Part shown: positions 1 through 61,365 of the stretch, piece after piece
Position numbering within the stretch: position 1 is the stretch's first letter
How the letters are laid out: the number at the start of each line of letters is the position of its first letter
Virus record (IMG/VR): IMGVR_UViG_3300032053_000049
Coordinates: 8,739 to 72,738 of that record
DNA length: 64,000 bases
Reading direction: 5' to 3' (one strand)
Source of the DNA: a virus
Position numbers and translations under genes: made by a program
The notes under the pieces: model-generated
The model's input: only the letters and a program-made list of their open reading frames with translations
Database searches by the model: none
What the model was told of the DNA's origin: nothing

Positions 1-764
1 ACTTCATTAATTTTAATTTTAACTACCTCGGAATCCTTTATCTTTGTATTGAGTTCAGTAAGTTGTGCCTTAACGTCACCAATTTTTTCACAAATAAAGG
101 TGCCAAGAGAGTTAGTATTGGAAATATTATTAATATATTCTCTCAATACGGATTTTTGATCATCATCAAGTGATTTGTATTTTTTATTAAGACCATCAAC
201 TAACAATCTATATGAAAGTAAACGAATCTCTTCGCTTTGTTGTTCATAAAACTTAAGTAAATTTTCTTCCTCACTTGGCGATTTCTTTCTATCAGATACG
301 TGTTCAACTAAGTATGTCTTAGCTTTATATATTTCCCTAACGTCAAATTTAACATCTTTTGAAGTAGCATCCTCGAAGAGTTTAAATATGGAAGCTAACG
401 TCTTATAATTTCGAATGTTGGATTTTAAAAACTCATCAATTGGATATGTCTCTTTTATTTCCTTGATAAGTTGATATTTTTCTCTCAAAAGTTTAGCATC
501 ACTAAGTTTCTTTCGTTGTTCAAGTATAACTGATAAAAATCGTTCTGCGAAGGTCGTATCCTTGACCTTTTCGTTTAAAATAAAATTATAAAGTCGCCAT
601 TCCTTCCCCAGTTCTGTATTTTCTTTGAAATATTTGAAGAGAATTTCTTTGGCTTTGGAATCATCGGTTCCGGCAATAATATCAGCTGTAATTTGACGCG
701 TTAATAGCTCAAATAAAATGCCGGTATTTCTAAATTTAGAATGGCGCTTTTTCTTGATAGACAT
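1..764 (-). CDS. Conserved phage protein downstream of portal (partial, runs off window edge)
   Basis: ATG at 762-764 reads MSIKKKRHSKFRNTGILFELLTRQITADII; TATTTATA motif upstream (784-791). Not in ORF track, presumably because it is truncated by the window edge. Confidence 0.7.
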   Translation of the reverse strand, partial: MSIKKKRHSKFRNTGILFELLTRQITADIIAGTDDSKAKEILFKYFKENTELGKEWRLYNFILNEKVKDTTFAERFLSVILEQRKKLSDAKLLREKYQLIKEIKETYPIDEFLKSNIRNYKTLASIFKLFEDATSKDVKFDVREIYKAKTYLVEHVSDRKKSPSEEENLLKFYEQQSEEIRLLSYRLLVDGLNKKYKSLDDDQKSVLREYINNISNTNSLGTFICEKIGDVKAQLTELNTKIKDSEVVKIKINE

Positions 765-823: not shown

Positions 824-3800
824 TTATTCATCTATTAGAATTTCTGGATCCATAATAGACTTGTTTCCATTGGTTTCCTTAATTAAATTTTTCTTTTCAC
901 TTCCCTTTTTTGACAGATAAGCATCTAGACTTTTGATTACATTTCCTTTTTTCATTGTAGCCACTCTTTTTTTATTCTCTTCCTTTTTCTTAGCCTCATC
1001 TATTGATAATGGAGATTTTTTAGAAAATTTATGAGTTATAGCACTACCAGGACGAGGTTTACTATTATTTTCTATATTTCCTAGAGGATCTTCTCCAAAC
1101 GGATAATCTGCTCTAGCATCTTTTTCTCCACTTTGATCACGGTTTCTTTTATATTCTTCTGAGTGATCATCATTACTTTCCTCTACAGGATTTTCTATTA
1201 CAACTTCTTTATCTTCATTTTTTTCAGTTTCCATAATTGGTGGGCCGCCTAGTCCTCCTAATTCTCCACCAGGACCACCCAATTCAGATCCACCGATTCC
1301 CCCACCGCCGACCAAACCTCCACCTCCACCTAGACCTCCACCTCCTAAACCTAAATCTCCTCCACCACCCATACCCGGTTGAGCGTTAGGATTTGGATTG
1401 ATCTTCTTGAACGGTTGAGCAGGATCATTACCTTCTTCCTCAATAGAACGAAAACGGTAAAGTTGCTTAGAATCATCCACAATTTCATCTCTAAGACCTT
1501 CAACATCGTCTTCTGATAAATTAAATACATTTTTATATACCCATTCCTTCGGAAAGAGTTTGATTTCCATCATACGAGAAGCAACCTCAACTTTATTACT
1601 CCAAACCTCAATCTTCTCTTTTTCAAAGATGGTCGATGGATTAGTAAGTTCTAGTTTAAAATTAACCAATGATTCATCCCTATATCCTTGGGCATATAAA
1701 TGAACTATAGCAATTTTTTCTAATTCAGAAATGAGGATTCTTTGAACACGTTGAATTGTACGAGCAAAGCGAACGTCTTCTGAATTATGTATTATAACTC
1801 CTGCCGAAGTAGCAAAATTATGATAATTTTTAATAGTTATATCACAAGTATCTCTTTTTTCAGATAACCGTTCAATTTTTATTACTTTATGATTTTTTAC
1901 ATATTTTTTAGAAAAATCTCTTATAGAGTTATAACCGTTTTCATAAATCAATTTATGTATATATGCTTTTCCACATTCCAGAGATTTGGATACTAATTTT
2001 GTATTATATCCATTTTCAGTAGAAAATTGAACTAAATCAATAAATGTTGGTAATGGGTTATTAAATCCTTTAGATTTCCTAAATGCTTCCACCATTAATG
2101 AAGATTTTTTATATTTTTTATTATTTTCTCTCAATAATTCTTTTCTATTACCACTATCTTTTTTCCATTTATTTTTACACATTTCAGACCATTCTATAGA
2201 ATTAAACTTATATTGAGCAAGATTTTTCTTTAACCGCTCTTTTTCCTCTGGATTATTATTTATATAATTTATTCTTTCTAAAGATTTTTTCTTTCTAAAC
2301 TCATCAGATTTTTTGTAAGCAATAGCTTCTGGAGAACAAAAAGTTTCATATGTATGATCTTTGTGAATATTTCTATGCTCAAGAAAAGTTAATCTTTTAA
2401 GATTTGGTGGGGAATTATCACTTCGCGAAAAATTATCATGGTGTACAATTACTAAATCATTTCTATTAAACTTAGTTTTATTTTTAATATGTGGTTGAAT
2501 AAGTTTTCCATTAATATGATCATCAATACGTTTATGAGTCCATTCCCATTTTTCCGTAGCAGGATTATAAATCTGTTCATAATCTGATTTTCCATACATT
2601 AATTTATTTCTCTTATATAATGGCATCAAAGATTGTCCTTCGGTAAGATCTTTCGCTTCAATCCATTTTCCATCTCTAGTCATAAAATTATGATCAGGAG
2701 TACAATCAATATATTCATTGTTATCAAGATGAACTCTAATAATATCAGTATTCATTCTTGTATAACCAGCCCATTCTATTTCTCCCGGAACAATATTTTT
2801 TGTGGTTTCATCTATAGAATATACATAATTTTTAATACCAATTTCATAATCTTTAATTAATTCTTCAACAGTCTTGGTTATTCCACTTAATAAAGGTATT
2901 TTTGTTTCAGGAACAATGCATGCAAGCGTGGCTTTTCCACTTAGCTCAGATTCGTACCCTAAAAAGGCCTTTGGTATCTTTAAAGCAGCCATCATTTTAT
3001 TACGAATGTATTCTACATCATCAATACCAGTCCATTCAATACCACTTAATGTTTCAATTGATGTTCCACTATCAGTACCACGAACTGGCAAATAAAAATC
3101 CTCAACCATATTTTGTAAATTAAATCGAAGATTATAATCACCTGTATTTTGATCTACATAAGGAACTTTTTTAGTTTTAGAAATCATTTTTTCCATAAAT
3201 GAATCAACATCTTGTGGAGGAATATTACCAATATCAATTTTGAAAATACGTCTTTCAGGAGCACGCATAATACGATTTATAAGCATCGCGTCTTCCAAAA
3301 GTGAATTATGTACAACCACGCCATTAGCAATAAAATTATGGTTATCTGATTCTACCATTATATCATAAACTGAAGAATTTTCTTCATAAGTTTCAATTGA
3401 TAAAATTCTCTCAAAATCTAAATCATATTCTTGATTAAAATTAATATATAATTTATATGTAGGGAATCTATGAATACCCAGTTCATCAATAGTTTCTTCT
3501 GGTTTATAACATTTTACTTCATTACACATTATTCCCGATTGTTGACATAAATGTTTTAATTGAGTAATCATTTCTTTATTAGATAAACCTATTACCGACC
3601 ATTTCCAAGAACCATCAGCATCAAATAATCCCTTTATAAATTCTTTCTTATTTTGTTTAGATAAATTAAATACCCATTCTGGAATTCTCTTATTTCTAAA
3701 TCCTGTTAAATAACCAGCGGTTTCCATTATGTATTTTAATTCTTTACTATAAGTTAAAGTACATCCTGGATGCGTATCATTATTTTTTGGATATGTTACG

Positions 3801-6800
3801 CAAATAGAATCTGAGTATTTTTTAATAATAGAAGTATATTTTTCATTTATTTCGCTATAAATACCATTAGCAAATCCAAGTCCATTTTTAGTTGTCCAAC
3901 CATCACCCAACATAAAACCAAAAAATCTTATAAAATTTTCATCTAATGTAAATGTAAAATCTTTATTAACGAAAGAAGGATTTTTGGAATTTTTGATATG
4001 TAAAAAATACATTTCGTTGGTTATCTTAAATTCCTTTTGAACATCAACAAAAATATTAAATGGTAATGATTTATCACCCATTAAAAAAGCATGTACTTGT
4101 TTATAAGGATGATTTTTTATAGTAGATTTAATTCGGTTAATAATACCAACTTTATTATAATTTTTAATATACTCAATTCCAATATTATTAAGTTTAGCAT
4201 AATACAATTTTGGATTTAATTTGATAGTATAATCTTTATTATCTGATTCTATTGTCGGTAAAACCAAACAATCCCCATTCTTTTTATTTACAATTAAATC
4301 TTTAGCTTTTTTATACAAATAATTTCCATCACTATTTTTTACTAAAACATCATGGGTTTCAGTTAAATGTAAAACTCTATGTTTGGTTTTAACTTCCAAT
4401 GTTTTTTTATTTCCAGTTTTTACACAATTTATAACCTTTGTTGGTTCAACCACGCATTTTTCGTAATTATAAGAATATACAACTGTATTCGGTTTAATAT
4501 CTTTTATTTTTTGATATCCAATATTTGTCCATATTTCCGAATTTTGATGTAAACAAAGTTGCTTCCATACCCTACGGCCGCCCTCGATCATTGAATTGTG
4601 AACTATTATACCATTTGCAATGAAATTAGAATTTAACGATTCTACTTGAATATCATATGTTTCTTTTTCTCCTCTATCTTCTATTTTTCTAACAGGTTCT
4701 AAAAATATATTTTTATTATCAATAAAATTATACTTTTCCATTTGTTGCTTTTCATCCGCATCAAAATAATAATTAAAAGAATATTCTCCGTGCTTATTAC
4801 ATTTTATTCCACGAATTTCTACCTCTTCTATTTTATCATTTTCTTTTGGATTTGATGATTTTATATTATTTAACTGAACTAATTTCTTAAAATCATAAAT
4901 TAAATCTTTGTTACATAACATTATAGAATAACATTTTGCCCATTCATCTTCATGTGTCCAGCCATCAGCATTTCCCAACCCAATTATAAAAGCGTTTTGA
5001 ATTTCATTATTTGATTCAAATACCCACGAAGGAATTCTTTTTTCTTTAGCATTATCACCAAATCCCATATTTTTTAATATTTTATATAATCTTTTAGAAT
5101 ATAAAATAGCGGTTCTAGACTTGCCGCCATGAAATGTGATATTAGCTTTTTTTCCAGCATATTTTTCTAATATTGACAAATATCTTTTATTCTGTTCTTC
5201 ATCGACACCAAGAGAAAAACATACTCTATAATTTGCAGATATACCATTTTTATTAGGATAATATTTAGCCCAACCATCACCTACCATAAATCCAAAAAAT
5301 TCAGCAAATTCATTATCTATCACATCTGGAATTTCATCCTTTTCTGGAACAAAAATAGGACAAGTAATTTGTTTATTATCTAATATATTTTTATCAATTA
5401 AAATGGTTTCTTTTGATTTTTTATTTTTATTAGAATTTATTACTAATAAATCACCGATTTTAATATTCTCTGCAATTTTATATTCTAAATTTTTATTTTC
5501 GGTATTAAAAACTAAAAATCTATGATTTTTACTGGAATCCACAAAATTGTGTTGAGTAGATATTCTAATGATTTCTTTTGTTCCAGAACAAATTTTATTT
5601 ACAACCTTAGTTAATTCAAAATTTTTAGTTTTTGTATTAAAAGACCACACGAATTCTCCTATATCTAAATCCTTTATATATTTCGAACCAAACTCTGTAT
5701 CAATATGTGTAGTAGATACTAAACACTTCCCATAGGGTAAGAAATTGCTGTCGCTCAGCAATCTAAAATGAGCACACTCAAAGGATTCAAGAGTTTCTAC
5801 TTGTGAAGTATCGGTAGGACGAATTTGAAATTTTACGTAATTTTTATTAAGAGGATCTGTATTTTCGAGACGTTCAACATTATAAGCAGAGATTGGTTCT
5901 ATTTGATAAACACCATATTCTGGTGAAATATACAATCTCATAAAAAAATCACCATATTTACATGTATTTCTAGTCCATGACCAAAGATTATGTTCAATAT
6001 TTAATACGTCATAAAAAAGATTAGTTAAAATACCTTTAATATTATCATCTTCAGCATTAACCACTAATACTTTACCCATTTCGTTAATCGTGAGACAATT
6101 ATGGGTAAAAAGTTTAGAACCATCTTGAGTTTCTATAGCATAAAGATGAGTAGAATTTCCAACATTTACTAAATCATAAGCATTATACTCCCCATCTTCT
6201 TGAATTGATACTACACGATGATTATTTGAATTAATTAAATCTTTTATTCCTTTATATCCTTTAGATCTTATATACCACCAAAGTTGTTTATTTGTTAAAT
6301 TATATTTACTAGATACTATTGATAAATTTCTTAAAATATTATTTCCACATTTAAGTTCTTCTAAAGCTAAGTTTTTAATATCAATAATAGGAATAGTTAT
6401 ACTATTTTCAAAAACATTTTTTAATTGATATATTCTATAAATATTATATTTTTTACATATTTGATTATTTATATCATTTCTATCTTTTCTACTAATATTA
6501 TATTTTTTCCCTAAATCGACCGATTTTAATCCATTTATAATATCATTTTCATATTCATTGATATTTATTTTGTTTATTGAATTGAAATTCTTCCATCTAC
6601 CATTTTTATTCCCAGAAAGTTTTTCTCCATACCCAAACATTCCATTTTTTAATCCATTTAAACCATACATTTCTTTTCGTTCTAATTCTGTCATATTAGA
6701 TATGAAGTTATTCATAAACGCTTTTTGTCTAACAGATACAAATTTTCGTTTTTCTTCTGTCCAATATTTACGATGTCCTTCTCTCGTTTTTTCTTTATAT

Positions 6801-7717
6801 TCATGAGTTCTAGAATCATCTGCCCATAATTCTTTATTAAATTGAGAATGAACTAATCTATGCTCTTTATAAGTCATCCACTGTAATACAGATGGATCAT
6901 TATTTTTTTTGTTAAATGAAGAATGGTGAATAACTTTGTCTTCAGATAATATTTTATTTCTACATTCAATTAGTTCTGGAATATAATTAGCCACAATTCT
7001 ATGAGTATATTTCCATTTTCCATTTTCTAATAACATTTCATACCCATTCATAAACTTATTTGTAGAAAGAGTAGTTCTAAACACTTTTAAAGAAGTTCCG
7101 TGTTCTAATTTATCGGTAGTTATAATTGTTCCATCTGATTTTACCCATTGATGATTAGCCGTACATTTTATTTCGGTTCCGTCATCTAATAAAACTTTTA
7201 ACATTTTCTTTTTTCCATTTAATGCTACTTTTTCACATTTAGAAGGAATAAATCTTCCATTTTCATCAATAGAATACACCCAAAAATCTTTTCGGTTCTG
7301 TAAATAAAGATCTGAAATTTTTATTTTTTCTCCGTTTAATAGTGGGATAATGGTGTCTCCATGAACACACTCATCTGAATAAATATCCAATGCACTAGCG
7401 ATGATGGGATCAAGGTCCATTGTGTCGTAATCTCTAAACAAATCAATTCTCGCAGCTTGATAGGCTAGTGAAAAGTCTCTGGTATAAGCATTATAAGAAG
7501 TTGAACGGACACGATTAAAACGATCACGAAGACTGTTTCTGTCTGTCGCATACATTAAATCACTGGTGTCTTTAACTTTTAATTTTTTTCCACCAACATT
7601 TCTAACTACTACGCCTGCAGAAAACAACTTTTTTAGACGAGCGAATAAAGATTTTTGTTTTACATCGATTTCGTCGCCATTTATTCCTGAGCTTGGTCTG
7701 ATAATGTCGTTATTCAT
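824..7717 (-). CDS. Portal protein (T4 gp20-like) precursor containing four inteins; spliced product about 700 aa
   Basis: Extein motifs DPIIASALDIYSDE, KYGDFF, LLEDAMLINRIMRAPERRIFKIDIGN, EDFYLPVRG, ALKIPKAFL, EDVRFARTIQR; adjacent to terminase; Gly-rich/acidic C-tail. Confidence 0.93.
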   Translation of the reverse strand: MNNDIIRPSSGINGDEIDVKQKSLFARLKKLFSAGVVVRNVGGKKLKVKDTSDLMYATDRNSLRDRFNRVRSTSYNAYTRDFSLAYQAARIDLFRDYDTMDLDPIIASALDIYSDECVHGDTIIPLLNGEKIKISDLYLQNRKDFWVYSIDENGRFIPSKCEKVALNGKKKMLKVLLDDGTEIKCTANHQWVKSDGTIITTDKLEHGTSLKVFRTTLSTNKFMNGYEMLLENGKWKYTHRIVANYIPELIECRNKILSEDKVIHHSSFNKKNNDPSVLQWMTYKEHRLVHSQFNKELWADDSRTHEYKEKTREGHRKYWTEEKRKFVSVRQKAFMNNFISNMTELERKEMYGLNGLKNGMFGYGEKLSGNKNGRWKNFNSINKININEYENDIINGLKSVDLGKKYNISRKDRNDINNQICKKYNIYRIYQLKNVFENSITIPIIDIKNLALEELKCGNNILRNLSIVSSKYNLTNKQLWWYIRSKGYKGIKDLINSNNHRVVSIQEDGEYNAYDLVNVGNSTHLYAIETQDGSKLFTHNCLTINEMGKVLVVNAEDDNIKGILTNLFYDVLNIEHNLWSWTRNTCKYGDFFMRLYISPEYGVYQIEPISAYNVERLENTDPLNKNYVKFQIRPTDTSQVETLESFECAHFRLLSDSNFLPYGKCLVSTTHIDTEFGSKYIKDLDIGEFVWSFNTKTKNFELTKVVNKICSGTKEIIRISTQHNFVDSSKNHRFLVFNTENKNLEYKIAENIKIGDLLVINSNKNKKSKETILIDKNILDNKQITCPIFVPEKDEIPDVIDNEFAEFFGFMVGDGWAKYYPNKNGISANYRVCFSLGVDEEQNKRYLSILEKYAGKKANITFHGGKSRTAILYSKRLYKILKNMGFGDNAKEKRIPSWVFESNNEIQNAFIIGLGNADGWTHEDEWAKCYSIMLCNKDLIYDFKKLVQLNNIKSSNPKENDKIEEVEIRGIKCNKHGEYSFNYYFDADEKQQMEKYNFIDNKNIFLEPVRKIEDRGEKETYDIQVESLNSNFIANGIIVHNSMIEGGRRVWKQLCLHQNSEIWTNIGYQKIKDIKPNTVVYSYNYEKCVVEPTKVINCVKTGNKKTLEVKTKHRVLHLTETHDVLVKNSDGNYLYKKAKDLIVNKKNGDCLVLPTIESDNKDYTIKLNPKLYYAKLNNIGIEYIKNYNKVGIINRIKSTIKNHPYKQVHAFLMGDKSLPFNIFVDVQKEFKITNEMYFLHIKNSKNPSFVNKDFTFTLDENFIRFFGFMLGDGWTTKNGLGFANGIYSEINEKYTSIIKKYSDSICVTYPKNNDTHPGCTLTYSKELKYIMETAGYLTGFRNKRIPEWVFNLSKQNKKEFIKGLFDADGSWKWSVIGLSNKEMITQLKHLCQQSGIMCNEVKCYKPEETIDELGIHRFPTYKLYINFNQEYDLDFERILSIETYEENSSVYDIMVESDNHNFIANGVVVHNSLLEDAMLINRIMRAPERRIFKIDIGNIPPQDVDSFMEKMISKTKKVPYVDQNTGDYNLRFNLQNMVEDFYLPVRGTDSGTSIETLSGIEWTGIDDVEYIRNKMMAALKIPKAFLGYESELSGKATLACIVPETKIPLLSGITKTVEELIKDYEIGIKNYVYSIDETTKNIVPGEIEWAGYTRMNTDIIRVHLDNNEYIDCTPDHNFMTRDGKWIEAKDLTEGQSLMPLYKRNKLMYGKSDYEQIYNPATEKWEWTHKRIDDHINGKLIQPHIKNKTKFNRNDLVIVHHDNFSRSDNSPPNLKRLTFLEHRNIHKDHTYETFCSPEAIAYKKSDEFRKKKSLERINYINNNPEEKERLKKNLAQYKFNSIEWSEMCKNKWKKDSGNRKELLRENNKKYKKSSLMVEAFRKSKGFNNPLPTFIDLVQFSTENGYNTKLVSKSLECGKAYIHKLIYENGYNSIRDFSKKYVKNHKVIKIERLSEKRDTCDITIKNYHNFATSAGVIIHNSEDVRFARTIQRVQRILISELEKIAIVHLYAQGYRDESLVNFKLELTNPSTIFEKEKIEVWSNKVEVASRMMEIKLFPKEWVYKNVFNLSEDDVEGLRDEIVDDSKQLYRFRSIEEEGNDPAQPFKKINPNPNAQPGMGGGGDLGLGGGGLGGGGGLVGGGGIGGSELGGPGGELGGLGGPPIMETEKNEDKEVVIENPVEESNDDHSEEYKRNRDQSGEKDARADYPFGEDPLGNIENNSKPRPGSAITHKFSKKSPLSIDEAKKKEENKKRVATMKKGNVIKSLDAYLSKKGSEKKNLIKETNGNKSIMDPEILIDE
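1784..2920 (-). mobile_element. Intein 4 in portal (379 aa, HNH-type endonuclease)
   Basis: Starts CIVPET after KATLA; block B CTPDHNF; VHHDNFSRSDN..NL...EH...H; ends IIHN followed by Ser. Confidence 0.93.
3305..4555 (-). mobile_element. Intein 3 in portal (417 aa, LAGLIDADG endonuclease)
   Basis: Starts CLHQNS after VWKQL; FFGFMLGDGW and FIKGLFDADGS; ends VVHN followed by Ser. Confidence 0.93.
4595..5725 (-). mobile_element. Intein 2 in portal (377 aa, LAGLIDADG endonuclease)
   Basis: Starts CLVSTT after PYGK; FFGFMVGDGW and FIIGLGNADGW motifs; ends IVHN followed by Ser. Confidence 0.93.
6098..7369 (-). mobile_element. Intein 1 in portal (424 aa, HNH-type endonuclease)
   Basis: Starts CVHGDT after SDE, block B CTANH, HNH-like IHHSSFNKKNND...EH...H, ends FTHN followed by Cys. 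Confidence 0.92.
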
Positions 7718-7744
7718 AATAATAAGTATATGTAGAGATGTGGT

Positions 7745-9379
7745 TTATTTAAGTAACCACACTAATGATTCAACATCTCCAGGTCTTCCACCAGTTTTCA
7801 TAGTCCATTGAGCCTGTCCTGATGTCATAGATGCAGCAGTATATATTGGTGTGTTAGTATTATCTGATTTCTTAACACTAATGTTATCTATCATATTTCT
7901 TGTAAGAATGATACCCTCCTGTCTTAATCTTATAGCTGTATCTCGTACCCACAATCCCAAACTCAAAGCTATAGTTAAATCATCATTACAGTTCTTAGAT
8001 GCTTGAGCTTTTCCATTATCCCAAACAAATGTTTTAAGTTCATTAATTGTCCTAACCGAATGAATATCTACTACTCTTTCACGAAAATATGCTTCTAATT
8101 TTGAAATAAGAAGAGGTCTTGTGCTAAGAGTTGTAGTAAATCCGGGTTTTAATTTCTTTTCTTCAGCATAATATCTACTAGTAATCCGCCGTTGAACTTC
8201 TACTACTTTAAGATCCAAACTACTATAAAAAGTATTTTTATATTCTCTATCTATAATACGTTGTAATACAGCAGGTCCCAAACCATTATATTCTACAATA
8301 AGAAGAGCATCATTATATTCTGTAGATAAATTAACCAAAACATCACCAAATTCCTTTGGTGTTATTTGTTGATGAAACTCAGCAACTTGTTCTAAAGTTT
8401 CTAGATTTAATACGTGAGCAGCAGAATAATCAGATCCGTCACCACGAGCTGGATCTGCGGAAATTATGTAGCTTTTTTCTTCTTTTGGTAATTCCCATAT
8501 CCATAAAAAGTTAGAATATCTTAATTCTATGGGATCTTTAATTCCCATTTCAGGTCGATTTGGTATATTTCTTTCTTCATATTCACGAAGAGTAAGTAAA
8601 TCAATTACACTTGTACCGGAAGTCAAGAAATCTGTGTCGCATTCTTGGGCAGCTTGTCTAGCACCCATATTTTTTGTTTGTAAATCTCTCCATTTTTTAT
8701 CTCGTTTTGGGTGAAGATTCCAAGGCAATCGAAGTATTTTAAAATCGTTTTTACCTTTTTCAGCATCAACCCACATCTTATGGAACCAATTTCCAACTCC
8801 AGAAGGAGTTGAAAGAACGATAGCAGATCCGCCGGTAGATAATGTGTTAAAAGATGAAGTCCAAATTTCATCAGCACAGTCAATAAAAGCAGCTTCATCA
8901 AGAACCAATAAACTAACAGCTTTAGAACGTCCGGCGTCTGTTGAAGATGAAGTAGCTTGAATTTGTGAACCGTTTTTAAGACGTAAAGATAAACGATTAT
9001 CTTCTGTAGCTATTACCTTTAACCACGAGGGAAGATGATCATTAGCAAATCTAACTTTAGTAATAATTTCTTTTGAAACTTCTTGTTTAATAGAAATAAT
9101 AAGAATACTTTTATCACTATTGAATATCATTTGCCAAAGAGAATAAGCAGCAACTAACGTAGTGATACCCATCTGTCTTGATTTAAGAATGAGAAGAAAT
9201 CTATCTTCGTGATATCGTTTTAATGTATCTTCCTGAAAAGGATAAAGATCAAATGGAACAGTACCTCCTTCATTTGGATTTTGAATCTTAACATATTTTC
9301 TTATAAAGTATATGGGATCTACCATACACTTTTTAGTTTCTTCGAAAATATATTTTCTTAAATCTTTTTCATTTCCCAT
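7745..9379 (-). CDS. terL: Terminase large subunit
   Basis: LYPFQ adenine motif, Walker A KSRQMGIT, Walker B LLVLDEAAF, motif III LSTP, nuclease SADPARGDGSDYS and NDD. Confidence 0.95.
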   Translation of the reverse strand: MGNEKDLRKYIFEETKKCMVDPIYFIRKYVKIQNPNEGGTVPFDLYPFQEDTLKRYHEDRFLLILKSRQMGITTLVAAYSLWQMIFNSDKSILIISIKQEVSKEIITKVRFANDHLPSWLKVIATEDNRLSLRLKNGSQIQATSSSTDAGRSKAVSLLVLDEAAFIDCADEIWTSSFNTLSTGGSAIVLSTPSGVGNWFHKMWVDAEKGKNDFKILRLPWNLHPKRDKKWRDLQTKNMGARQAAQECDTDFLTSGTSVIDLLTLREYEERNIPNRPEMGIKDPIELRYSNFLWIWELPKEEKSYIISADPARGDGSDYSAAHVLNLETLEQVAEFHQQITPKEFGDVLVNLSTEYNDALLIVEYNGLGPAVLQRIIDREYKNTFYSSLDLKVVEVQRRITSRYYAEEKKLKPGFTTTLSTRPLLISKLEAYFRERVVDIHSVRTINELKTFVWDNGKAQASKNCNDDLTIALSLGLWVRDTAIRLRQEGIILTRNMIDNISVKKSDNTNTPIYTAASMTSGQAQWTMKTGGRPGDVESLVWLLK

Positions 9380-12475: not shown

Positions 12476-15400
12476 TTAAATATATTGTATTTTTGAAAAT
12501 CCATCTTTTTTAGTTATCTCTATATTATCATTAGATATATCCTTAATAGAATCAATATGCGACACTATGATAATATAATCGAAAAAAGTTTTCAGATATG
12601 AAAAAAATGTACTCATAGATGATAAATTTTCAGCATCTAAAACTCCACATGGTTCATCAAGGGCAAGAAAATTAGAACGCGGCAAATTACTCAGGCTAAT
12701 TAGGGCCACACGAATTGCTGTTGATAAAATAAACTGTTCCATCCCACTTCCAAGACTCATAAGCCATCGTCTTTCATCATATACAATGTAAGGAATGATA
12801 TTCTTACCATCGACATCAAATTTAGCGTGAAATTCTACAATTTGACTTAAAATACTATTAACTTCATTCTCAATGGCTGGTACCGCAGAACAAATAATTT
12901 CATAAGGAATTCCGTCTCGGCAAATAGATTGAACATAAAGATCATACGCTTTATATTGTTTTTCAACTTCTTTAACTTTAGAAATTTTATTTGTTAACTC
13001 TTCAATTTTAGAATGTAAAACGGAAGTTTTACCAATAAGAGTTCTAAGTAATTGATTTTGTTTATTTTCTTCATACGCAACCATAGACCATTTATTTTCT
13101 AATATATTACCAATCCTTTTAACTTCTATGTTATTAATAATGGATTCTTTATGATTATTAAATTCCACCAATTTCTTTTCAAATGATTCTAATAATATCT
13201 TCTTATTATCACGAGTTTTGATAGAATCCTCTTGTCTCTTAGTATATCCTAAATATTTTTCCTGAATATTCATTCTCTCTTTTAAAAGAAAATTATATGT
13301 TTTATTTTCTTCTTCGACCCATTTAATATCATCTATTTTCTTAATTGTGTTATTTTTACGTGTAACCAATTCTTCTATAATAGGTTTATATGTAATAAGA
13401 CGTTCATTCGATTTAGTTGCTTCAATAGAAATATTGTCAGCATTTTTTACACAAAATCCACAATTAGGATCAAATTGATAATTCTCCAATCGACCTGCCT
13501 TTTCTTTAAAAATTTTCGCTTCTGCTACTTTCTGTGATAATTCGATTTCTATTTGATTTTTCTCAACATTTAATTTTTGGTATTGTTCATACAACTTAAA
13601 AATATTCTTATCTTCTATTTTTTTAATTTTATTTCTAATATCAATCATAATATTATCACATTCCTTCATTTCTTTTTGTAAAGAATCTAAGGTTGATTGA
13701 TATTGTAAAATTAAATGTTTATTTGATTCGATATCTTCTATAATATCTTTTTCTGATAAATTAGAAATTCCTTCTATTTTTATTAATTTAGCATTATTTT
13801 CAGTTACCAAACGTTGTAATTGTTCCTTTTTATCACATACAATTTTAAAGTTTTCATTCTCAATTTTAAAAAGCAATTCTACTTGAGATAAAGCATCAGA
13901 ATTTGTTTTTAAATCTTCCTCAAAATCTTCATTTTTATACACACGAAGAATGGAAATAATTTCATTCAATTTAGAATTGGCTTCTTCATGAAGAATATCA
14001 AAAACATTAAGACCTAAAAATTGTGCCAGTAAATCTTTTCGTCCTGAATCTCCAATATCAATAAATGAAGTTTCATATTTACCAGATCGTTGAACACTTA
14101 AACTGGTTAAAAGAAAATCTTCATAAGTGCCTACATAATTACGTATGGTAGAATTAGTATCTACTCTCTCCACTCCGGTAAGATTTTCTTCAACTCCATT
14201 TATCATTCTCCAAAATTTAACGTTAACCTTAACGTTGCCTTTTTTATCCATTTTACCAACTCTTTCGATGAAATAATGGATTTCGTTAATGTTAATCTCC
14301 AATTGTGCTCGACAACTCATTTTTTGATCATTGATAATATTATTGGTTTTAAAATCTCGTTCACATTTATCAAAAATACACCACGATAAAGAACTCATAA
14401 TACTACTTTTTCCTAAAGCATTTTTACCAAATATACCAACTAATCCATTCATTTTTGTAAAATCTATTATATTATTTTCTCCATAACTAAATAAATTATC
14501 CCATTCAAATTTAATAGGATTCCAACGAATATTTTTTGCTATATTATCGGTTTTTACTTCGTCATTAGTCTTATTATTAATATCAATTACTGTTTTAATC
14601 AATTCTTCATCTTTAATACCAAGTTTATTATTAAGATATTCTGTAATAAGTTTAATTTGATGTTCTTTATTTTTTATATCACCACGAATTAAATTTTCAG
14701 TTAAAGTTGTTTGTCTTTTTTCTTCATCCTTAACATTTTCTCTCGTATAAGTCGGTGGTTCTACAAATTCTGTAATTTCTTTTAATTTCTTTAAAACCTC
14801 TTTTGTTTCGGTTGGTAAAGTCTCATATAAAGATAATCTGATTCTTGATTTCTTGGGTATATCAGAAAGATCAGTTTTAATCTTTCCTTCATCAACTTTA
14901 ATCGTAAAATAACCATAATCATTTGGTATTTCTATGTGTTGATATGATTTTTCTTTAAGATTCCATAATGTATAACCATGTCCTTTTAAAGATTCTCCGT
15001 GATTTTGTTGGCATAAAGAGCCACAATATCGAATATATGGTTTATTTTGATCAAAATCATATTCTTGAAGAGTCTGTTGGAGGTGTATATCGCCAAGCAT
15101 GCAAATTTCGTGTCCATCAAACATTGAAAGAGGCATTGATTTATCAGATATTTTAAATCCTAAATCTGTAATTGCACCATCAACTTGTCCGTGATATAAA
15201 CAAATAAAATATTCATATTGATTTCTATAAATTGATGGTATATCTTTACCTTTCAAATATTTCTCCGATTCATCAAATATACTATAATTATTTATACAAA
15301 TATTACCTAATCCATATAAACCACTTTCTTTTAAATAAAATAAATTTGGATGATTAATTGCCTCAACAATTGGACTTAATGGATCTAATCTATGTTTATT

Positions 15401-15694
15401 GGCTAAATTTAAGTCGTGATTACCAGCAATTAAAATTGTAGGTCTTAAATCTGATAAACAACATAAAAACTCTTTTGCTAATTGAATACATTCCGCGGTT
15501 AAATCTAATTTTGAGTGAAATAAATCTCCACAAAAACAAATTAACGTTTCTTTCGGAGTTTCTTTTACTAAATAAAATAATCTTTGAAATACTTCACGAA
15601 ATTCATCGTGACGTTTTAAAAGCCTAATATGGCAATCCGCAATTTGAATAACAAAATCTATATTTTTAATTTTTGTATCTAATATCTTTATCAT
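12476..15694 (-). CDS. Fused SbcD(Mre11)-SbcC(Rad50) nuclease/ATPase (T4 gp47-gp46-like)
   Basis: N-terminal phosphoesterase motifs ADCH, GDLFH, GNHD, LGDIH; then Walker A GKNALGKSS, coiled coil with CGFC zinc hook, GSGME signature, LALDEP, VSH. Confidence 0.92.
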   Translation of the reverse strand: MIKILDTKIKNIDFVIQIADCHIRLLKRHDEFREVFQRLFYLVKETPKETLICFCGDLFHSKLDLTAECIQLAKEFLCCLSDLRPTILIAGNHDLNLANKHRLDPLSPIVEAINHPNLFYLKESGLYGLGNICINNYSIFDESEKYLKGKDIPSIYRNQYEYFICLYHGQVDGAITDLGFKISDKSMPLSMFDGHEICMLGDIHLQQTLQEYDFDQNKPYIRYCGSLCQQNHGESLKGHGYTLWNLKEKSYQHIEIPNDYGYFTIKVDEGKIKTDLSDIPKKSRIRLSLYETLPTETKEVLKKLKEITEFVEPPTYTRENVKDEEKRQTTLTENLIRGDIKNKEHQIKLITEYLNNKLGIKDEELIKTVIDINNKTNDEVKTDNIAKNIRWNPIKFEWDNLFSYGENNIIDFTKMNGLVGIFGKNALGKSSIMSSLSWCIFDKCERDFKTNNIINDQKMSCRAQLEININEIHYFIERVGKMDKKGNVKVNVKFWRMINGVEENLTGVERVDTNSTIRNYVGTYEDFLLTSLSVQRSGKYETSFIDIGDSGRKDLLAQFLGLNVFDILHEEANSKLNEIISILRVYKNEDFEEDLKTNSDALSQVELLFKIENENFKIVCDKKEQLQRLVTENNAKLIKIEGISNLSEKDIIEDIESNKHLILQYQSTLDSLQKEMKECDNIMIDIRNKIKKIEDKNIFKLYEQYQKLNVEKNQIEIELSQKVAEAKIFKEKAGRLENYQFDPNCGFCVKNADNISIEATKSNERLITYKPIIEELVTRKNNTIKKIDDIKWVEEENKTYNFLLKERMNIQEKYLGYTKRQEDSIKTRDNKKILLESFEKKLVEFNNHKESIINNIEVKRIGNILENKWSMVAYEENKQNQLLRTLIGKTSVLHSKIEELTNKISKVKEVEKQYKAYDLYVQSICRDGIPYEIICSAVPAIENEVNSILSQIVEFHAKFDVDGKNIIPYIVYDERRWLMSLGSGMEQFILSTAIRVALISLSNLPRSNFLALDEPCGVLDAENLSSMSTFFSYLKTFFDYIIIVSHIDSIKDISNDNIEITKKDGFSKIQYI

Positions 15695-59500: not shown

Positions 59501-59590
59501 TGGCGGCAGATGAGGGATTCGAACTCTCGGTGGGTGTTAACCACTTCTGTTTTCGGGACAGGTGCTTTAAGCCATCTCAGCCAATCTGTC
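59501..59590 (-). tRNA. tRNA-Ser(CGA), atypical (C33, stem mismatches)
   Basis: GACAGAT acceptor, long variable arm, TTCGAAT T-loop, G73-CCA; anticodon loop CCCGAAA. Confidence 0.75.
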
Positions 59591-59605
59591 AATATAAAAA
59601 AATAA

Positions 59606-59771
59606 AGTGGCGAAACTTTTATACCTGTCAGAATTTCGTCCTTCACCATATCCACTGCTTTTGATTGTGGACTCCTTCTATGGTCTTCAACGAAACTTAA
59701 TCGTTTACTTATTTTTCATAGTTATCTTGGGTATAAAATACGTCAAGGATTTATTTTAGGTGTTCACCACT
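59606..59771 (-). ncRNA. Unidentified 166-nt rod-like structured RNA between two tRNAs
   Basis: Nested stems AGTGGTGAA/TTCGCCACT, TTTTATACC/GGTATAAAA, AGTTTCGTT/GACGAAATT, ACCATA/TATGGT, TCCAC/GTGGA; G-U wobbles favour the minus strand. Confidence 0.6.
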
Positions 59772-59775
59772 AAAT

Positions 59776-59849
59776 TGGCTGACTACTCACGATTTGAACG
59801 TGAACAAAAACTTTCAGAAAGTTTTATGCTACCATTACATCAGTAGTCA
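59776..59849 (-). tRNA. tRNA-Gln(CTG)
   Basis: TGACTAC/GTAGTCA acceptor, loop TTCTGAA, TTCAAAT T-loop, GCCA end. Confidence 0.85.
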
Positions 59850-59869
59850 ATTTTCTGTGTAAAATTTAA

Positions 59870-60013
59870 TTAAGCATCAATACCGGCTTTTTTCAAAATA
59901 GCCTTTGCTTCAGCCACACCGACTTCAACTTTCTTAGGATTTTTACGTCCAATAAGGATACCTGCTACAAATCCGGCTACTGCTACTAATACATAAATTC
60001 CAATTGTGATCAT
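59870..60013 (-). CDS. Small membrane protein (47 aa)
   Basis: MITIGIYVLVAVAGFVAGILIGRKNPKK... one TM plus basic tail. Confidence 0.6.
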   Translation of the reverse strand: MITIGIYVLVAVAGFVAGILIGRKNPKKVEVGVAEAKAILKKAGIDA

Positions 60014-60035
60014 ATTTTTTATCTTTCTTTAAAAA

Positions 60036-60113
60036 TGGTTGCGGAGGATGGGAGTTGAAACCATCGTGTACTCACGTTATGAGCATGAGAGCTTACCACT
60101 TGCTGACCCCGCA
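60036..60113 (-). tRNA. tRNA with CAT anticodon (Met or Ile2), enlarged T-loop
   Basis: TGCGGGG/CTCCGCA acceptor, TCATG-CTCATAA-CGTGA anticodon arm, ACCA end; TATTTATA immediately upstream. Confidence 0.75.
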
Positions 60114-60170
60114 ATTATAAATATAATATAAATAAAGAAAAAATCAAAAAGTAATATAGTTCTTCTTTTA

Positions 60171-60500
60171 TCATTGAATAGAGCCACTAACAAATGGAGC
60201 CGAAACAAATATAGGAATAGTTGTTTTTGTATCTATTACCGTTCCATCAGATTTTTTTTCTGATTCGGATAATTCTACTTTTTCTCCCCATATTCTTTGT
60301 CCTGCTTTAGCTGCGGCTAAACCCAATGTAATAGTAACAAGAGAACTATCAAAAGAAGTTAAAGTTTTATTTTTTATGGTTACGTATGTTAAATTAAAAC
60401 ATAATGTAAACATCCACAACCAAAACATAGCTCTCATAGTTGAGGCTCCTGTGTTATTGTCTTCAAAAAAACCAGAAAACCAAATAAATAATTTTTTCAT
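60171..60500 (-). CDS. Two-TM membrane protein (holin-like)
   Basis: Two hydrophobic segments, charged tail; near a permuted NlpC/P60 gene. Confidence 0.5.
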   Translation of the reverse strand: MKKLFIWFSGFFEDNNTGASTMRAMFWLWMFTLCFNLTYVTIKNKTLTSFDSSLVTITLGLAAAKAGQRIWGEKVELSESEKKSDGTVIDTKTTIPIFVSAPFVSGSIQ

Positions 60501-60530
60501 ATAGTTTGGAGGAAGGAAACCCCAACGGCT

Positions 60531-60710
60531 TTAGCCTTGGGGAGGAATTCCGACCATTCTCCATGAATTATACGTCAGAAACTTAATATCTGATGGTTTA
60601 GCGTTCTGACATAATCGCTTTCCATCTCTTAAATTATGCAAAGAAACTCTGTCTCTCAAAGTTCCACCCACATAACAAAAATTGTATTTTGCGTGTTTAT
60701 TTTCTATCAT
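60531..60710 (-). pseudogene. IsrB-like C-terminal fragment (59-aa open frame)
   Basis: MIENKHAKYNFCYVGGTLRDRVSLHNLRDGKRLCQNAKPSDIKFLTYNSWR matches the recalled C-terminus of RRXRR/IsrB proteins (KHPKYGLCYVGG...RISLH...GKRLCQNAK). Confidence 0.68.
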
Positions 60711-61365
60711 GGTTTTTAATCCTTTCTATCCACGATAAAAATTCATCGTAAGATTTGGTAAACTTCGCCCTATTACAATCCCAACAACAAGATACACAAT
60801 TAGATGAAACATATCCTATTTTATTATCTTTTCGGTCTATTCCGTTGTAAGTAAATCGTCCATTGGTTGTTTTATTTCCCGCCAATTGAGACGGTTTGCA
60901 TCCACAATAATAACAATCATCTAAAAATAGTTTTTTGGCATCATCTTTAGAAAAGTTAAATAGAATGCCTTTTGTTTCGGCTCGTTTCTTATATGATGTA
61001 TAAAGTTTATTAAATGAAGATATTCCTACGGGTAATTTGTTACTCGAAGAATGTGTTGGTTTGCATCCTTTATTACCACAACTTACTATATTACCTGATT
61101 TCAAGTGTTGAGCTAATATCGGTTTTATTTTTCCACATTCACATTTACATAACCAATATGTTCTTCCTTTTATTGGATTTTCCAAAGATAAAACGGTGAG
61201 TCTCCCATATTTTTTATTAGTTAAATCTTCTAATCTATGTGAAGCATCTCCAATATGTTTCGTGCTGCTACGCACAGTTGACTCAATTGCCTTCAAATGG
61301 CCGGTCTTGCGACCGACCTTGGCCACTCTAGTCTCTATTTTAACTTTTAATTTTGAACTTAGCAT
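60697..61365 (-). CDS. Phage-type HNH endonuclease with its start inside the omegaRNA
   Basis: DLTNKKYGRLTVL...WLCKCECG...SCG DNA-binding module; CYYC...NGIDRKDNKIGY..SNCVSCCWDCNRAK HNH. Confidence 0.82.
   Translation of the reverse strand: MLSSKLKVKIETRVAKVGRKTGHLKAIESTVRSSTKHIGDASHRLEDLTNKKYGRLTVLSLENPIKGRTYWLCKCECGKIKPILAQHLKSGNIVSCGNKGCKPTHSSSNKLPVGISSFNKLYTSYKKRAETKGILFNFSKDDAKKLFLDDCYYCGCKPSQLAGNKTTNGRFTYNGIDRKDNKIGYVSSNCVSCCWDCNRAKFTKSYDEFLSWIERIKNHDRK

What the first reader, a model, noticed from the sequence alone, without database searches (positions are those of the whole stretch)
824..7717. Portal protein with four inteins making up about 70% of the ORF, two of them only 13 residues apart
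Seen: four C...HN inteins of 424, 377, 417 and 379 aa (1597 of 2297 aa) with +1 residues C, S, S, S, arranged HNH, LAGLIDADG, LAGLIDADG, HNH. The extein between inteins 2 and 3 is only SMIEGGRRVWKQL. Knowledge: phage inteins mostly occupy terminases and replication proteins, and most carry LAGLIDADG rather than HNH domains. Here the adjacent terminase has none. Inference: four splicing events gate head assembly, and the homing sites of inteins 2 and 3 may overlap, so they could co-home or compete.
Basis: partly seen in the sequence, partly recalled or inferred. Interest (0 to 1): 0.7.

Follow-up and report, generated by a model that had tools for sequence, protein, structure and literature searches.

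The report
Four-intein portal gene of jumbo phage
The gene for the DNA-entry ring (portal) of an uncultured giant phage is interrupted by four self-removing protein elements that make up 70% of its length, an extreme but not unique case in a phage group whose portal genes turn out to be a hotspot for such elements.

Summary
Window 824-7717 (- strand) is one 2297-codon ORF: a T4-type (gp20, PF07230) portal carrying four class-1 inteins of 424, 377, 417 and 379 aa. Each runs Cys1...His-Asn, with +1 residues C, S, S, S. The endonuclease types are HNH, LAGLIDADG, LAGLIDADG, HNH, and inteins 2 and 3 are 13 residues apart.

Removing them in silico gives 700 aa. This product aligns end to end with intein-free portals: a single HMM domain, and 80.8% identity to a 704-aa relative. 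Contigs from a second sediment metagenome bridge all eight junctions without a mismatch.

Among long relatives, 10 of 77 protein clusters (this one included) have four inteins and 2 have five. One more four-intein portal turned up in a second set. At least 13 insertion points are used. Neighbouring inteins sit as close as 7 and 9 residues elsewhere.

Sites 2 and 3 are mostly occupied separately (29 and 14 clusters, against 6 with both), so co-homing is not supported. The same phage also has an intein in its prohead protease.

My literature searches found no description of inteins in T4-type portals. I file it as a new, extreme member of a known kind. Splicing itself is inferred.

The parts
824..7717 (-). 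Portal precursor ORF, 2297 aa (stop codon 824-826)
   Evidence: Pfam Portal_T4 E 3.6e-53 and Intein_splicing in 4 stretches
7370..7717 (-). Extein 1 (residues 1-116), portal N-terminal region, ends ...IYSDE
6098..7369 (-). Intein 1 (424 aa), Cys1...His-Asn, +1 Cys, HNH endonuclease type. Insertion point 99 in reference coordinates
   Evidence: Pfam 36.0 bits; four PHROG HNH families, best E 3.3e-6; Ssp DnaB intein 1mi8 E 1e-5; block B TANH read
5726..6097 (-). Extein 2 (residues 541-664), wing region, ends ...FLPYGK
   Evidence: HMM positions 103-235
4595..5725 (-). Intein 2 (377 aa), Cys1...His-Asn, +1 Ser, LAGLIDADG type. Insertion point 236
   Evidence: Pfam 67.2 bits; PI-PkoII endonuclease region E 7.5e-4; both LAGLIDADG motifs with invariant D150 and D254
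4556..4594 (-). Extein 3, 13 residues SMIEGGRRVWKQL. Corresponds to the wing/stem boundary and the start of stem helix alpha5 of T4 gp20
   Evidence: mapping plus domain limits in PMC4493910; 54% G+C against 25% in the inteins
3305..4555 (-). Intein 3 (417 aa), Cys1...His-Asn, +1 Ser, LAGLIDADG type. Insertion point 249 (gp20 L264|K265)
   Evidence: Pfam Intein_splicing 68.1 bits and LAGLIDADG_3 22.6 bits against a cut-off of 22.5
2921..3304 (-). Extein 4 (residues 1472-1599): stem, clip and the start of the tunnel loop; the best-conserved portal block
   Evidence: Portal_T4 best stretch 1472-1590; HMM positions 245-372
1784..2920 (-). Intein 4 (379 aa), Cys1...His-Asn, +1 Ser, HNH type. Insertion point 377 (gp20 T397|R398, end of the tunnel loop)
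   Evidence: Pfam 79.5 bits; PHROG HNH E 1.6e-5; invariant H160 H161 N169 H182. The AlphaFold model has a HINT fold matching the NpuDnaE intein, and strand-strand-helix elements over residues 157-194
827..1783 (-). Extein 5 (residues 1979-2297): wing helix, crown and a long C-terminal tail with a Gly-rich stretch
   Evidence: HMM positions 372-625
7745..9379 (-). Terminase large subunit, 544 aa, no intein (context)
   Evidence: Pfam Terminase_6N only; no PF14890 match there
3..764 (-). Gene downstream of the portal, cut by the window edge (292 aa in the full contig). Conserved next to the portal in LR756508.1 (context)

Best explanation
This is the single, functional portal (gp20-type) gene of an uncultured, AT-rich phage. 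The record is 72.7 kb and CheckV estimates it at 21% complete. Four independent selfish inteins have invaded the gene.

The 2297-aa precursor should remove all four inteins by the standard class-1 route: an N-S acyl shift at Cys1, transesterification to the +1 Cys or Ser, cyclisation of the terminal Asn, and a final acyl shift. The product is a 700-aa portal subunit that can form the dodecamer.

The inteins sit in the N-terminal wing region, at the wing/stem boundary, in stem helix alpha5 and at the end of the tunnel loop. An unspliced or partly spliced chain is therefore not expected to assemble. Head assembly depends on four splicing events in the portal, plus one in the prohead protease.

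At the DNA level each intein carries an apparently intact homing endonuclease (two HNH, two LAGLIDADG). This explains the sporadic occupancy of the same sites among relatives.

Shown: the anatomy, the catalytic residues, the contiguity of the spliced product, the independent assembly support and the distribution among relatives. Inferred: actual splicing, endonuclease activity, homing, and the block to assembly by unspliced chains.
For: Anatomy and splicing residues:
- All four inteins have Cys1, a block-B (T/S)xxH read, the penultimate His, the terminal Asn and a +1 nucleophile. The block-B His is invariant.
- Each intein alone passes the Pfam Intein_splicing cut-off and matches solved inteins.
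- A model of intein 4 (mean pLDDT 71, above 88 in the HINT part) matches the NpuDnaE intein at TM 0.61-0.76.

Contiguity of the spliced product:
- It gives one hmmsearch domain over positions 6-625 of a 626-position HMM built from 58 intein-free portals, scoring 1004. The precursor scores 892 in 6 pieces.
- It gives one BLASTP alignment, 2-700 against 3-704 of intein-free P0084, at 80.8% identity.

Independent assembly and gene context:
- Contigs of run X2, a different sample, bridge all eight junctions with 0 mismatches (records 4, 5, 7 and 8).
- All PF07230 matches in the 72.7-kb record fall in this one frame.
- The gene order terminase, portal, three ORFs, prohead protease matches Flavobacterium phage immuto.

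Distribution among relatives:
- The nearest relatives by extein identity (75-81%) have empty sites.
- In 85 intein-free relatives the +1 position is already Cys or Ser in 85 (site a), 48 (b), 85 (c) and 68 (d).
- The same four sites are occupied in 24, 35, 20 and 8 of 76 long relatives.

Endonuclease motifs are intact.
Against: There is no direct evidence of splicing or expression, and no run listed is on record as RNA.

Support for individual domains is uneven:
- Intein 1 passes the Pfam cut-off by only 0.2 bits.
- Pfam HNH_3 stays below its cut-off (14-16 bits against 24.8).
- Pfam does not see the LAGLIDADG domain of intein 2.

Only about a fifth of the genome is in hand, so a second, intein-free portal gene elsewhere cannot be excluded.

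The best homologue of each intein is only 53-64% identical. No precise intein-less allele was seen in the laid contigs. Recent mobility is therefore not shown.
Confidence: 0.85

Rival explanations
1. Conditional splicing as a checkpoint. One or more of the inteins has been co-opted so that splicing, and hence prohead initiation, responds to a signal such as redox state (intein 1 has Cys1 and a +1 Cys) or metal ions. On this view it is no longer a purely selfish passenger.
For: The portal is needed to start head assembly, and the inteins sit in parts needed for ring formation. A second head-assembly protein, the prohead protease, also carries an intein. Conditional protein splicing is described for other inteins (abstract of PMC7360933, seen in the listing). 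The phage comes from sediment metagenomes.
Against: Nothing in the sequence points to regulation. Occupancy of every site is sporadic, and the closest relatives have no inteins at all. That is the pattern of selfish elements, not of a conserved regulatory device. The endonuclease motifs are intact, again as expected for mobile parasites.
Confidence: 0.1
2. Decaying or dead gene. At least one intein no longer splices, so this ORF gives no working portal, and the phage is defective or relies on another portal gene in the unsampled part of the genome.
For: Only 21% of the genome is held. Intein 1 barely passes the Pfam cut-off. Yield falls with every extra splicing step.
Against: The frame is open for 2297 codons, while the other two frames have 182 and 366 stops. 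All catalytic residues are present in all four inteins. The exteins are 75-81% identical to intact portals with no lesion. The same allele, identical in sequence, occurs in contigs of other samples. Nine other clusters with four inteins and two with five exist, so such genes persist.
Confidence: 0.04
3. Assembly artefact. The four-intein arrangement is a chimera of several strains, each with fewer inteins.
For: The record is a metagenome assembly. Relatives with one to three inteins exist.
Against: Four contigs of a different run (X2) cover 1656-9115 with two short gaps (2725-2767 and 4682-4870), both inside inteins. They bridge all eight junctions with 0 mismatches. Ten runs hold at least half of the sampled words. 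The four inteins are only about 30% identical to each other, so there are no repeats to mislead an assembler.
Confidence: 0.01

Closest known systems
Portal of uncultured huge phage LR756508.1 (484 kb), ORF L001:2986-7146, 1386 aa
   Same: It is the closest match in the public phage collection. It has mini-inteins at the same two sites b and c with the same 13-residue spacer (SVLEGARRTWKQL). It also has a homologous HNH-type intein in the tunnel loop.
   Different: It has three inteins, not four, and none at site a. Its b and c inteins have lost the endonuclease (150 and 141 aa). Its tunnel-loop intein sits 4 residues upstream (GK|S, against GKATLA|S in the window). Extein identity is only 44%. 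The record is unannotated.
Metagenomic multi-intein portals of the same clade (for example P0030 = the ORF of L011 with five inteins, P0062 with five, P0021 and P0032 with the b+c pair)
   Same: Same portal family, same insertion points, same two intein lineages. P0021 and P0032 have a 417-aa site-c intein 57-58% identical to intein 3.
   Different: None of the 76 analysed clusters has the window's combination 99+236+249+377. The window protein ties with P0076 for the largest intein share, 69.5% (P0035 scores higher only because its extein part is far shorter than the others, 356 aa). No source names these proteins beyond 'intein/homing endonuclease' or 'hypothetical protein'.
Trichodesmium erythraeum ribonucleotide reductase with four inteins (Liu et al. 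2003, as cited in PMC10710043) and archaeal MCM proteins with four
   Same: Four inteins in one polypeptide. PMC10710043 (passage read) gives four as the maximum described before its own five-intein Prp8.
   Different: Those are cellular replication or nucleotide-metabolism enzymes, not a phage structural protein. I did not read the original paper.
Haloarchaeal MCM inteins at four neighbouring sites (PMC10643990)
   Same: Several insertion sites lie close together in one gene. That paper (abstract and passages) reports that neighbouring inteins interfere with each other's homing rather than co-homing. This fits the lack of positive association between sites b and c here.
   Different: Archaeal chromosome, LAGLIDADG inteins only, four sites. 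Here at least 13 sites are used, and neighbours lie 7-13 residues apart.
Portal inteins of actinobacteriophages (PMC5050341; bioRxiv 10.1101/2025.01.02.630785)
   Same: Inteins in phage portal proteins are already on record: six in cluster C1 mycobacteriophages, and five separate groups in the 2025 survey (passages read).
   Different: The passages I read do not mention portals with more than one intein. In the 2025 survey the non-canonical endonucleases, in-frame HNH among them, are found in DNA polymerase, minor capsid, terminase and thymidylate synthase, not in portals. That portal family is listed under InterPro IPR009279; I did not test whether it equals PF07230.

Membership tests
Intein (class 1, HINT splicing domain) | An in-frame insertion whose removal restores a contiguous host protein | tested here: met
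   One HMM domain over positions 6-625 of 626 after in-silico removal. One BLASTP alignment end to end with a 704-aa intein-free portal. Gaps fall exactly at the four inserts in the alignment to intein-free portals.
Intein (class 1, HINT splicing domain) | N-terminal Cys/Ser/Thr, block B (T/S)xxH, C-terminal His-Asn, and Cys/Ser/Thr at +1 | tested here: met
   4 of 4 inteins have Cys1, TANH / SKNH / TETH / TPDH, HN, and +1 C, S, S, S. The block-B His and the terminal Asn are invariant in alignments A2 and A3.
Intein (class 1, HINT splicing domain) | Match to the curated Intein_splicing profile above its cut-off | tested here: met
   36.0, 67.2, 68.1 and 79.5 bits against a cut-off of 35.8, each intein scanned alone. 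Intein 1 is marginal.
Intein (class 1, HINT splicing domain) | HINT fold | tested here: met
   Tested for intein 4 only. The AlphaFold model (12-sequence alignment) matches NpuDnaE, Ssp DnaE/DnaB and Mtu RecA inteins at Foldseek E 1e-6 to 1e-5, TMt up to 0.76. Inteins 1-3 were not folded.
Intein (class 1, HINT splicing domain) | Autocatalytic protein splicing | not testable with these tools
   Needs expression of the precursor.
T4-type portal protein (gp20, Pfam PF07230) | Match to the Portal_T4 profile above its cut-off | tested here: met
   E 3.6e-53, 181 bits against a cut-off of 22.9. Four matches in one frame.
T4-type portal protein (gp20, Pfam PF07230) | Full-length collinearity with known portals, and position next to the large terminase upstream of the prohead protease | tested here: met
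   for collinearity. Terminase at 7745-9379. Peptidase_S77 three genes downstream. Same order as annotated in Flavobacterium phage immuto and Microcystis phage Mel-JY01.
T4-type portal protein (gp20, Pfam PF07230) | Sequence similarity to the solved gp20 structure | tested here: met
   Tested through the intein-free relative L002: E 2e-21 to T4 gp20 (3ja7, 6uzc) over residues 238-489. The N-terminal 237 residues were not aligned to gp20.
T4-type portal protein (gp20, Pfam PF07230) | Dodecameric ring at the unique capsid vertex | not testable with these tools
LAGLIDADG homing endonuclease (inteins 2 and 3) | Two LAGLIDADG motifs, each ending in a catalytic acidic residue | tested here: met
   FFGFM(V/L)GDGW and G(L)xxADG(W/S) are present in both. 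D150 and D254 (intein 2 numbering) are invariant in 4 of 4 aligned b/c inteins.
LAGLIDADG homing endonuclease (inteins 2 and 3) | Match to a curated LAGLIDADG profile | tested here: inconclusive
   Intein 3: LAGLIDADG_3 at 22.6 bits against a cut-off of 22.5. Intein 2: no Pfam hit. Both match the endonuclease part of PI-PkoII (E 7.5e-4 and 3.6e-3).
HNH endonuclease (inteins 1 and 4) | HNH (beta-beta-alpha-metal) motif | tested here: met
   PHROG HNH families: intein 1 hits four (best E 3.3e-6), intein 4 hits one (E 1.6e-5). H160, H161, N169 and H182 are invariant and H186 nearly so in 12 aligned inteins. The model has strands 157-161 and 174-178 followed by helix 179-194.
HNH endonuclease (inteins 1 and 4) | Match to the Pfam HNH profile above its cut-off | tested here: not met
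   HNH_3 at 14.1-16 bits against a cut-off of 24.8 for intein 1; nothing for intein 4. The assignment rests on the PHROG profiles and the motif.
Mobile (homing) intein | Sporadic presence at a fixed site among close relatives, with empty, cleavable alleles | tested here: met
   12 of 80 IMG/VR loci carry at least one intein. The nearest relatives have empty sites. 17 of the 120 best short relatives carry one intein. Cleavage of empty sites was not testable.

The most novel reading that the evidence does not exclude
The T4-type portal gene of this uncultured, largely jumbo-phage clade is the densest natural intein hotspot so far noticed, and inteins have spread from site to site within this one gene.

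An HNH-intein lineage was found here only in portals: 120 of the 120 best hits carry PF07230. It occupies at least nine different insertion points, including positions 370, 371, 373 and 377 inside the flexible tunnel loop. The closest relatives of the window's site-377 intein within the long-cluster set sit at site 370. A LAGLIDADG lineage occupies two sites 13 codons apart.

Precursors with four inteins (this window) or five would then be snapshots of repeated ectopic, intragenic transposition. That would give a natural system to study how inteins gain new sites and how close neighbours interfere. In this phage, five splicing events (four in the portal, one in the protease) must succeed before a prohead can form.
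Probability: 0.4. Interest if true: 0.7.

Novelty: new member of a known kind. Interest (0 to 1): 0.55.

Why it matters
Four inteins in one protein equals the published maximum for bacteria, archaea and viruses (PMC10710043, passage read). Relatives of this gene reach five, the figure reported there for a eukaryotic Prp8.

The host is a low-copy structural protein that starts head assembly, not a replication enzyme. The dominant inteins are of the rarely reported HNH type.

The clade offers at least 13 insertion points in about 300 codons, neighbours 7-13 residues apart, and all combinations of occupancy. This is natural material for two open questions: how inteins colonise new sites, and whether close neighbours help or hinder each other's homing.

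Practically, these precursors of 1.3-2.3 kaa confuse gene calling and annotation of phage portals. The sources name them 'intein/homing endonuclease' or 'hypothetical protein'.

Tried and rejected
- Earlier notes of this scan were not open to the session.
- No RNA holder was listed among the sequencing runs, so nothing can be said on expression.
- Laid contigs gave five 'joints'. Each has only 20-21 letters on the shorter side, and none coincides with an intein boundary. I treat them as noise. No precise intein-less allele was seen, and contigs cannot show absence.
- DNA-level search of the phage collection found only six records with short matches.
- Co-conversion signature. The 39-bp mini-extein is 54% G+C, and the 23 codons around site b have G/C at the third position in 15. 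Relatives also run high there, and Met and Trp codons inflate the figure. Too weak to use.
- Similarity of the empty-site DNA of sites b and c is 16 of 48 bases, no better than other pairs. There is no support for a shared target sequence.
- Association of sites b and c is not significant (odds ratio 0.40, p 0.12). It is also biased, because only proteins of at least 1263 aa were sampled.
- Did intein 3 arise from intein 2 inside the gene? Unresolved. They are 28.5% identical, and a SufB intein scores about as well against intein 2.
- The fold search of the intein 4 model was dominated by the HINT domain. The HNH part was not searched alone.
- The protease intein is only 24-26% identical to portal b/c inteins of other phages, so it is a separate element.
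- Literature searches and passages of papers gave no report of inteins in T4-type portals or of multi-intein portals. Supplementary tables were closed and could hold such entries.
Full report
**1. What is in the sequence**

The finding's coordinates hold an ORF on the - strand, 824..7717, of 2297 aa. Pfam sees Portal_T4 (PF07230, E 3.6e-53) and four stretches of Intein_splicing.

Boundary motifs place four inserts:
- residues 117-540 (424 aa),
- residues 665-1041 (377 aa),
- residues 1055-1471 (417 aa),
- residues 1600-1978 (379 aa).

Each begins with Cys and ends with His-Asn. The following residues are Cys, Ser, Ser and Ser. The five exteins are 116, 124, 13, 128 and 319 aa, 700 in all. The 13-residue one reads SMIEGGRRVWKQL. 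The inteins make up 1597 of 2297 residues (69.5%).

The frame is not open by chance. Over the same 6.9 kb the other two frames of that strand hold 182 and 366 stops.

**2. Are they real inteins?**

Scanned one at a time, all four pass the Intein_splicing cut-off of 35.8 bits, with 36.0, 67.2, 68.1 and 79.5 bits. All match solved inteins by sequence.

Block B reads TANH, SKNH, TETH and TPDH. Its His, the terminal Asn and Cys1 are invariant or nearly so in alignments with relatives.

A model of intein 4, built on a 12-sequence alignment, has mean pLDDT 71 and above 88 in the splicing domain. It matches the NpuDnaE, Ssp DnaE/DnaB and Mtu RecA inteins at Foldseek E about 1e-6 and TMt up to 0.76.

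**3. Endonuclease types**

Inteins 1 and 4:
- They hit PHROG HNH-endonuclease families (best E 3.3e-6 and 1.6e-5).
- They share an invariant HH-x7-N-x12-H-x3-H pattern with ten related inteins.
- In the model this pattern lies on two strands followed by a helix.
- Pfam HNH_3 stays below its cut-off.

Inteins 2 and 3:
- They keep two LAGLIDADG motifs whose Asp residues are invariant in 4 of 4 aligned inteins.
- They match the endonuclease part of PI-PkoII.
- Pfam LAGLIDADG_3 just passes for intein 3 (22.6 bits against 22.5) and is silent for intein 2.

The order HNH, LAGLIDADG, LAGLIDADG, HNH is therefore supported.

**4. Is the host a contiguous portal?**

In an alignment with the intein-free portals of Flavobacterium phage immuto and Microcystis phage Mel-JY01, the exteins align without a break. 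Identity is 46-47%, and the gaps fall exactly at the four inserts.

I removed the inteins inside a script and scored the 700-aa product against an HMM built from 58 intein-free relatives.
- The product gives one domain over positions 6-625 of 626, score 1004.
- The precursor gives six pieces, score 892.
- BLASTP gives one alignment from end to end with a 704-aa intein-free protein, P0084, at 80.8% identity.

**5. Is the arrangement an assembly artefact?**

The stretch is held by 20 sediment-metagenome runs, ten of them with at least half of the sampled words. In run X2, not the likely source sample, four contigs lie on 1656-2724, 2768-4681, 4871-6679 and 6672-9115 with 0 mismatches. Together they bridge all eight extein-intein junctions. 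These runs may belong to one campaign, so this is support from other samples, not from other habitats.

**6. Context**

- The window is 64 kb of a 72.7-kb virus record that CheckV rates 21% complete. The implied genome is roughly 350 kb.
- Relatives with intein-bearing portals lie on contigs of 266-469 kb.
- Upstream lies the large terminase, without an intein.
- Downstream, just outside the window, the gene order matches that of phage immuto.
- The prohead protease (Peptidase_S77) is a 557-aa precursor with a 348-aa LAGLIDADG-type intein after ...AIGE, followed by CDHP.
- All Portal_T4 matches in the record fall in the one frame.

**7. Where the inteins sit in the portal**

The relative L002 aligns with T4 gp20 (E 2e-21). 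Domain limits are taken from PMC4493910 (passages read).
- Site c (KQL|S) corresponds to gp20 L264|K265, inside stem helix alpha5.
- Site b lies 13 residues earlier, at the wing/stem boundary. This is extrapolated, since it is just outside the aligned block.
- Site d (ATLA|S) corresponds to T397|R398, the end of the tunnel loop.
- Site a lies in the N-terminal wing region that did not align to gp20.

A chain that still holds any of these 40-50-kDa inserts is unlikely to enter a dodecameric ring. That is an inference.

**8. How common is this?**

- *Public phage genomes.* The best match is the unannotated huge-phage record LR756508.1. Its 1386-aa portal has mini-inteins at sites b and c, with the same 13-residue spacer, and an HNH-type intein in the tunnel loop.
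Of the best 80 kept, 12 carry at least one intein. That ranking favours intein-bearing proteins.
- *Long proteins in the 5.8-billion-protein collection.* Extein 4 finds 77 clusters of 1263-4020 aa, the window's own included. My own N- and C-terminal intein HMMs count 44 clusters with two inteins, 20 with three, 1 ambiguous, 10 with four (including this one) and 2 with five, P0030 and P0062.
- *A second set of 95 portals, found with intein 4.* It adds one more four-intein protein.
Of the 120 best, 17 carry an intein.

Four-intein portals are therefore rare, about a dozen clusters against thousands, but recurrent.

None of the 76 analysed clusters shares the window's combination of sites. Its intein share is the highest among clusters with a full-length extein part, equal with P0076.

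**9. Insertion points and neighbours**

I mapped junctions onto the intein-free reference. Of the 77 clusters, 76 were analysed; P0052 was dropped for unequal N and C counts. The raw mapping gives 17 positions.

Of these, 13 have clearly distinct junction contexts: 81, 84, 90, 99, 144, 236, 249, 313, 350, 370, 371, 373 and 377.

The window's sites are used in 24 (99), 35 (236), 20 (249) and 8 (377) clusters.

Neighbouring inteins are 7 residues apart in P0042 (370/377) and 9 residues apart in six cases (81/90 and 90/99). The 13-residue spacing occurs in six clusters.

Sites b and c are occupied together in 6 clusters, b alone in 29 and c alone in 14 (odds ratio 0.40, p 0.12). The sampling of long proteins biases this test, but it gives no support for co-homing. 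This agrees with the experimental conclusion for haloarchaeal MCM that neighbouring inteins interfere with one another (PMC10643990, abstract and passages).

**10. Signs of mobility**

- The nearest relatives by extein identity (75-81%) have all four sites empty.
- Occupancy is scattered over the extein tree.
- In 85 intein-free relatives the +1 residue is already Cys or Ser in 85 (site a), 48 (b), 85 (c) and 68 (d).
- Against recent transfer: the closest homologue of each intein is only 53-64% identical, about as diverged as the exteins of its carrier.

**11. Intein lineages**

Inteins 1 and 4 are about 30% identical to each other. They are also related to inteins at sites 81, 90, 144, 313, 370, 371 and 373. 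With intein 4 as query, 236 longer proteins match at E <= 1e-10, and all 120 listed carry Portal_T4. Within the long-cluster set, the best full-length matches of intein 4 (site 377) sit at site 370; P0122, the best hit overall (64%), was not mapped to a site.

Inteins 2 and 3 are 28.5% identical over their whole length. A whole-library search with intein 2 gives 1693 hits at E <= 0.001.
- Of the best 150 representatives, 126 are portals, including the first 55.
- Of the 24 others I scanned nine. One is a SufB, three are terminases, one is a subtilase, and four show only intein domains.

So the HNH lineage looks portal-specific and has spread to many sites in the gene. The LAGLIDADG lineage has relatives in other hosts, and the origin of site c from site b is unresolved.

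**12. Comparison with what is known**

- Portal inteins are on record for actinobacteriophages.
- HNH inteins are known but rare.
- Four inteins per protein was the published maximum before a five-intein eukaryotic Prp8.
- My searches found nothing on inteins in T4-type portals or on multi-intein portals.

**13. Verdict**

The identification is right, and the mechanism is ordinary class-1 splicing by four independent selfish elements. The ideas of gating and co-homing are not supported by data.

The object is a new and extreme member of a known kind. Its main value is as the entry point to an apparently undescribed intein hotspot in the portal genes of a clade of mostly very large uncultured phages.

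Noticed in passing
L084:4981-6654 (- strand; contig C1 of G000, about 2 kb beyond the window's left edge): The prohead protease (Peptidase_S77, T4 gp21 type) of the same phage is a 557-aa precursor with a 348-aa LAGLIDADG-type intein (Cys1...His-Asn, +1 Cys). The intein is inserted after ...AIGE and before CDHP. Two head-assembly proteins therefore need splicing.
   Followed up: partly
L011:2345-7759 (= protein P0030) and protein P0062: Two relatives carry five inteins in the portal: sites 90, 236, 249, 313, 377 and sites 99, 144, 249, 313, 373. The spliced L011 product gives one HMM domain over positions 4-625. Five equals the highest number I found in print for any protein (Prp8, PMC10710043).
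   Followed up: partly
Proteins P0004, P0007, P0016, P0030, P0062 and others; loci L019:8439-9578 and L011 site 313: Inteins at sites 144 and 313 begin with Pro (PVKYDS..., PVRHDT...) and end ...KN before Cys, Ser or Thr. They lack an N-terminal nucleophile yet are homologous to the HNH-type inteins. From recall, this is what class 3 inteins look like. Not tested.
   Followed up: no
Tunnel-loop region of the portal (reference positions 370-377); P0042, L001, L005, L006, L009, L011: Homologous inteins sit at four to five different points within eight residues of the tunnel loop (370, 371, 373, 377, perhaps 376). P0042 holds two of them only 7 residues apart. This looks like repeated small shifts of the insertion point in a flexible loop.
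   Followed up: partly
window about 1238-1381 (- strand), residues about 2113-2160 of the portal: There is a Gly-rich low-complexity stretch (GGGGxLGxGGG...) in the C-terminal tail of the portal. It is absent from the three aligned relatives. Laid contigs show an 18-base deletion at 1302 in one run and a depth spike at 1257-1570, probably from unrelated Gly-rich genes.
   Followed up: no
window 4556-4594 and flanks: The 39-bp mini-extein is 54% G+C, in a gene whose inteins are 25% and whose other exteins are 31-37%. This might reflect target-site constraint or co-conversion, but the signal is weak against relatives.
   Followed up: partly
window 12476-15694 (- strand): A 1072-aa ORF combines a Metallophos domain (residues 15-169) with an SMC_N/Rad50-like start (residues 399-468). 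It may be a fused Mre11-Rad50 (gp47-gp46 type) nuclease.
   Followed up: no
L084:3232-4917 and L084:117-662: Near the protease lie a 561-aa ORF with DUF7487 and a weak REase_MTES_1575 match, and a 181-aa ORF with repeated NPxYGKHH-like motifs. Both look like free-standing homing-endonuclease-type genes, so the head-gene block is rich in mobile elements.
   Followed up: no
L001:1123-2904 (LR756508.1): The ORF between the terminase and the portal of the huge phage LR756508.1 (593 aa) also contains an intein (...AWC|VSGDT ... VHN|CLWGG by eye), in a host protein I did not identify.
   Followed up: no
window 59501-63774 (- strand): Five tRNA genes lie here (Ser-CGA, Gln-CTG, Met-CAT, Val-TAC, Pro-TGG).
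   Followed up: no
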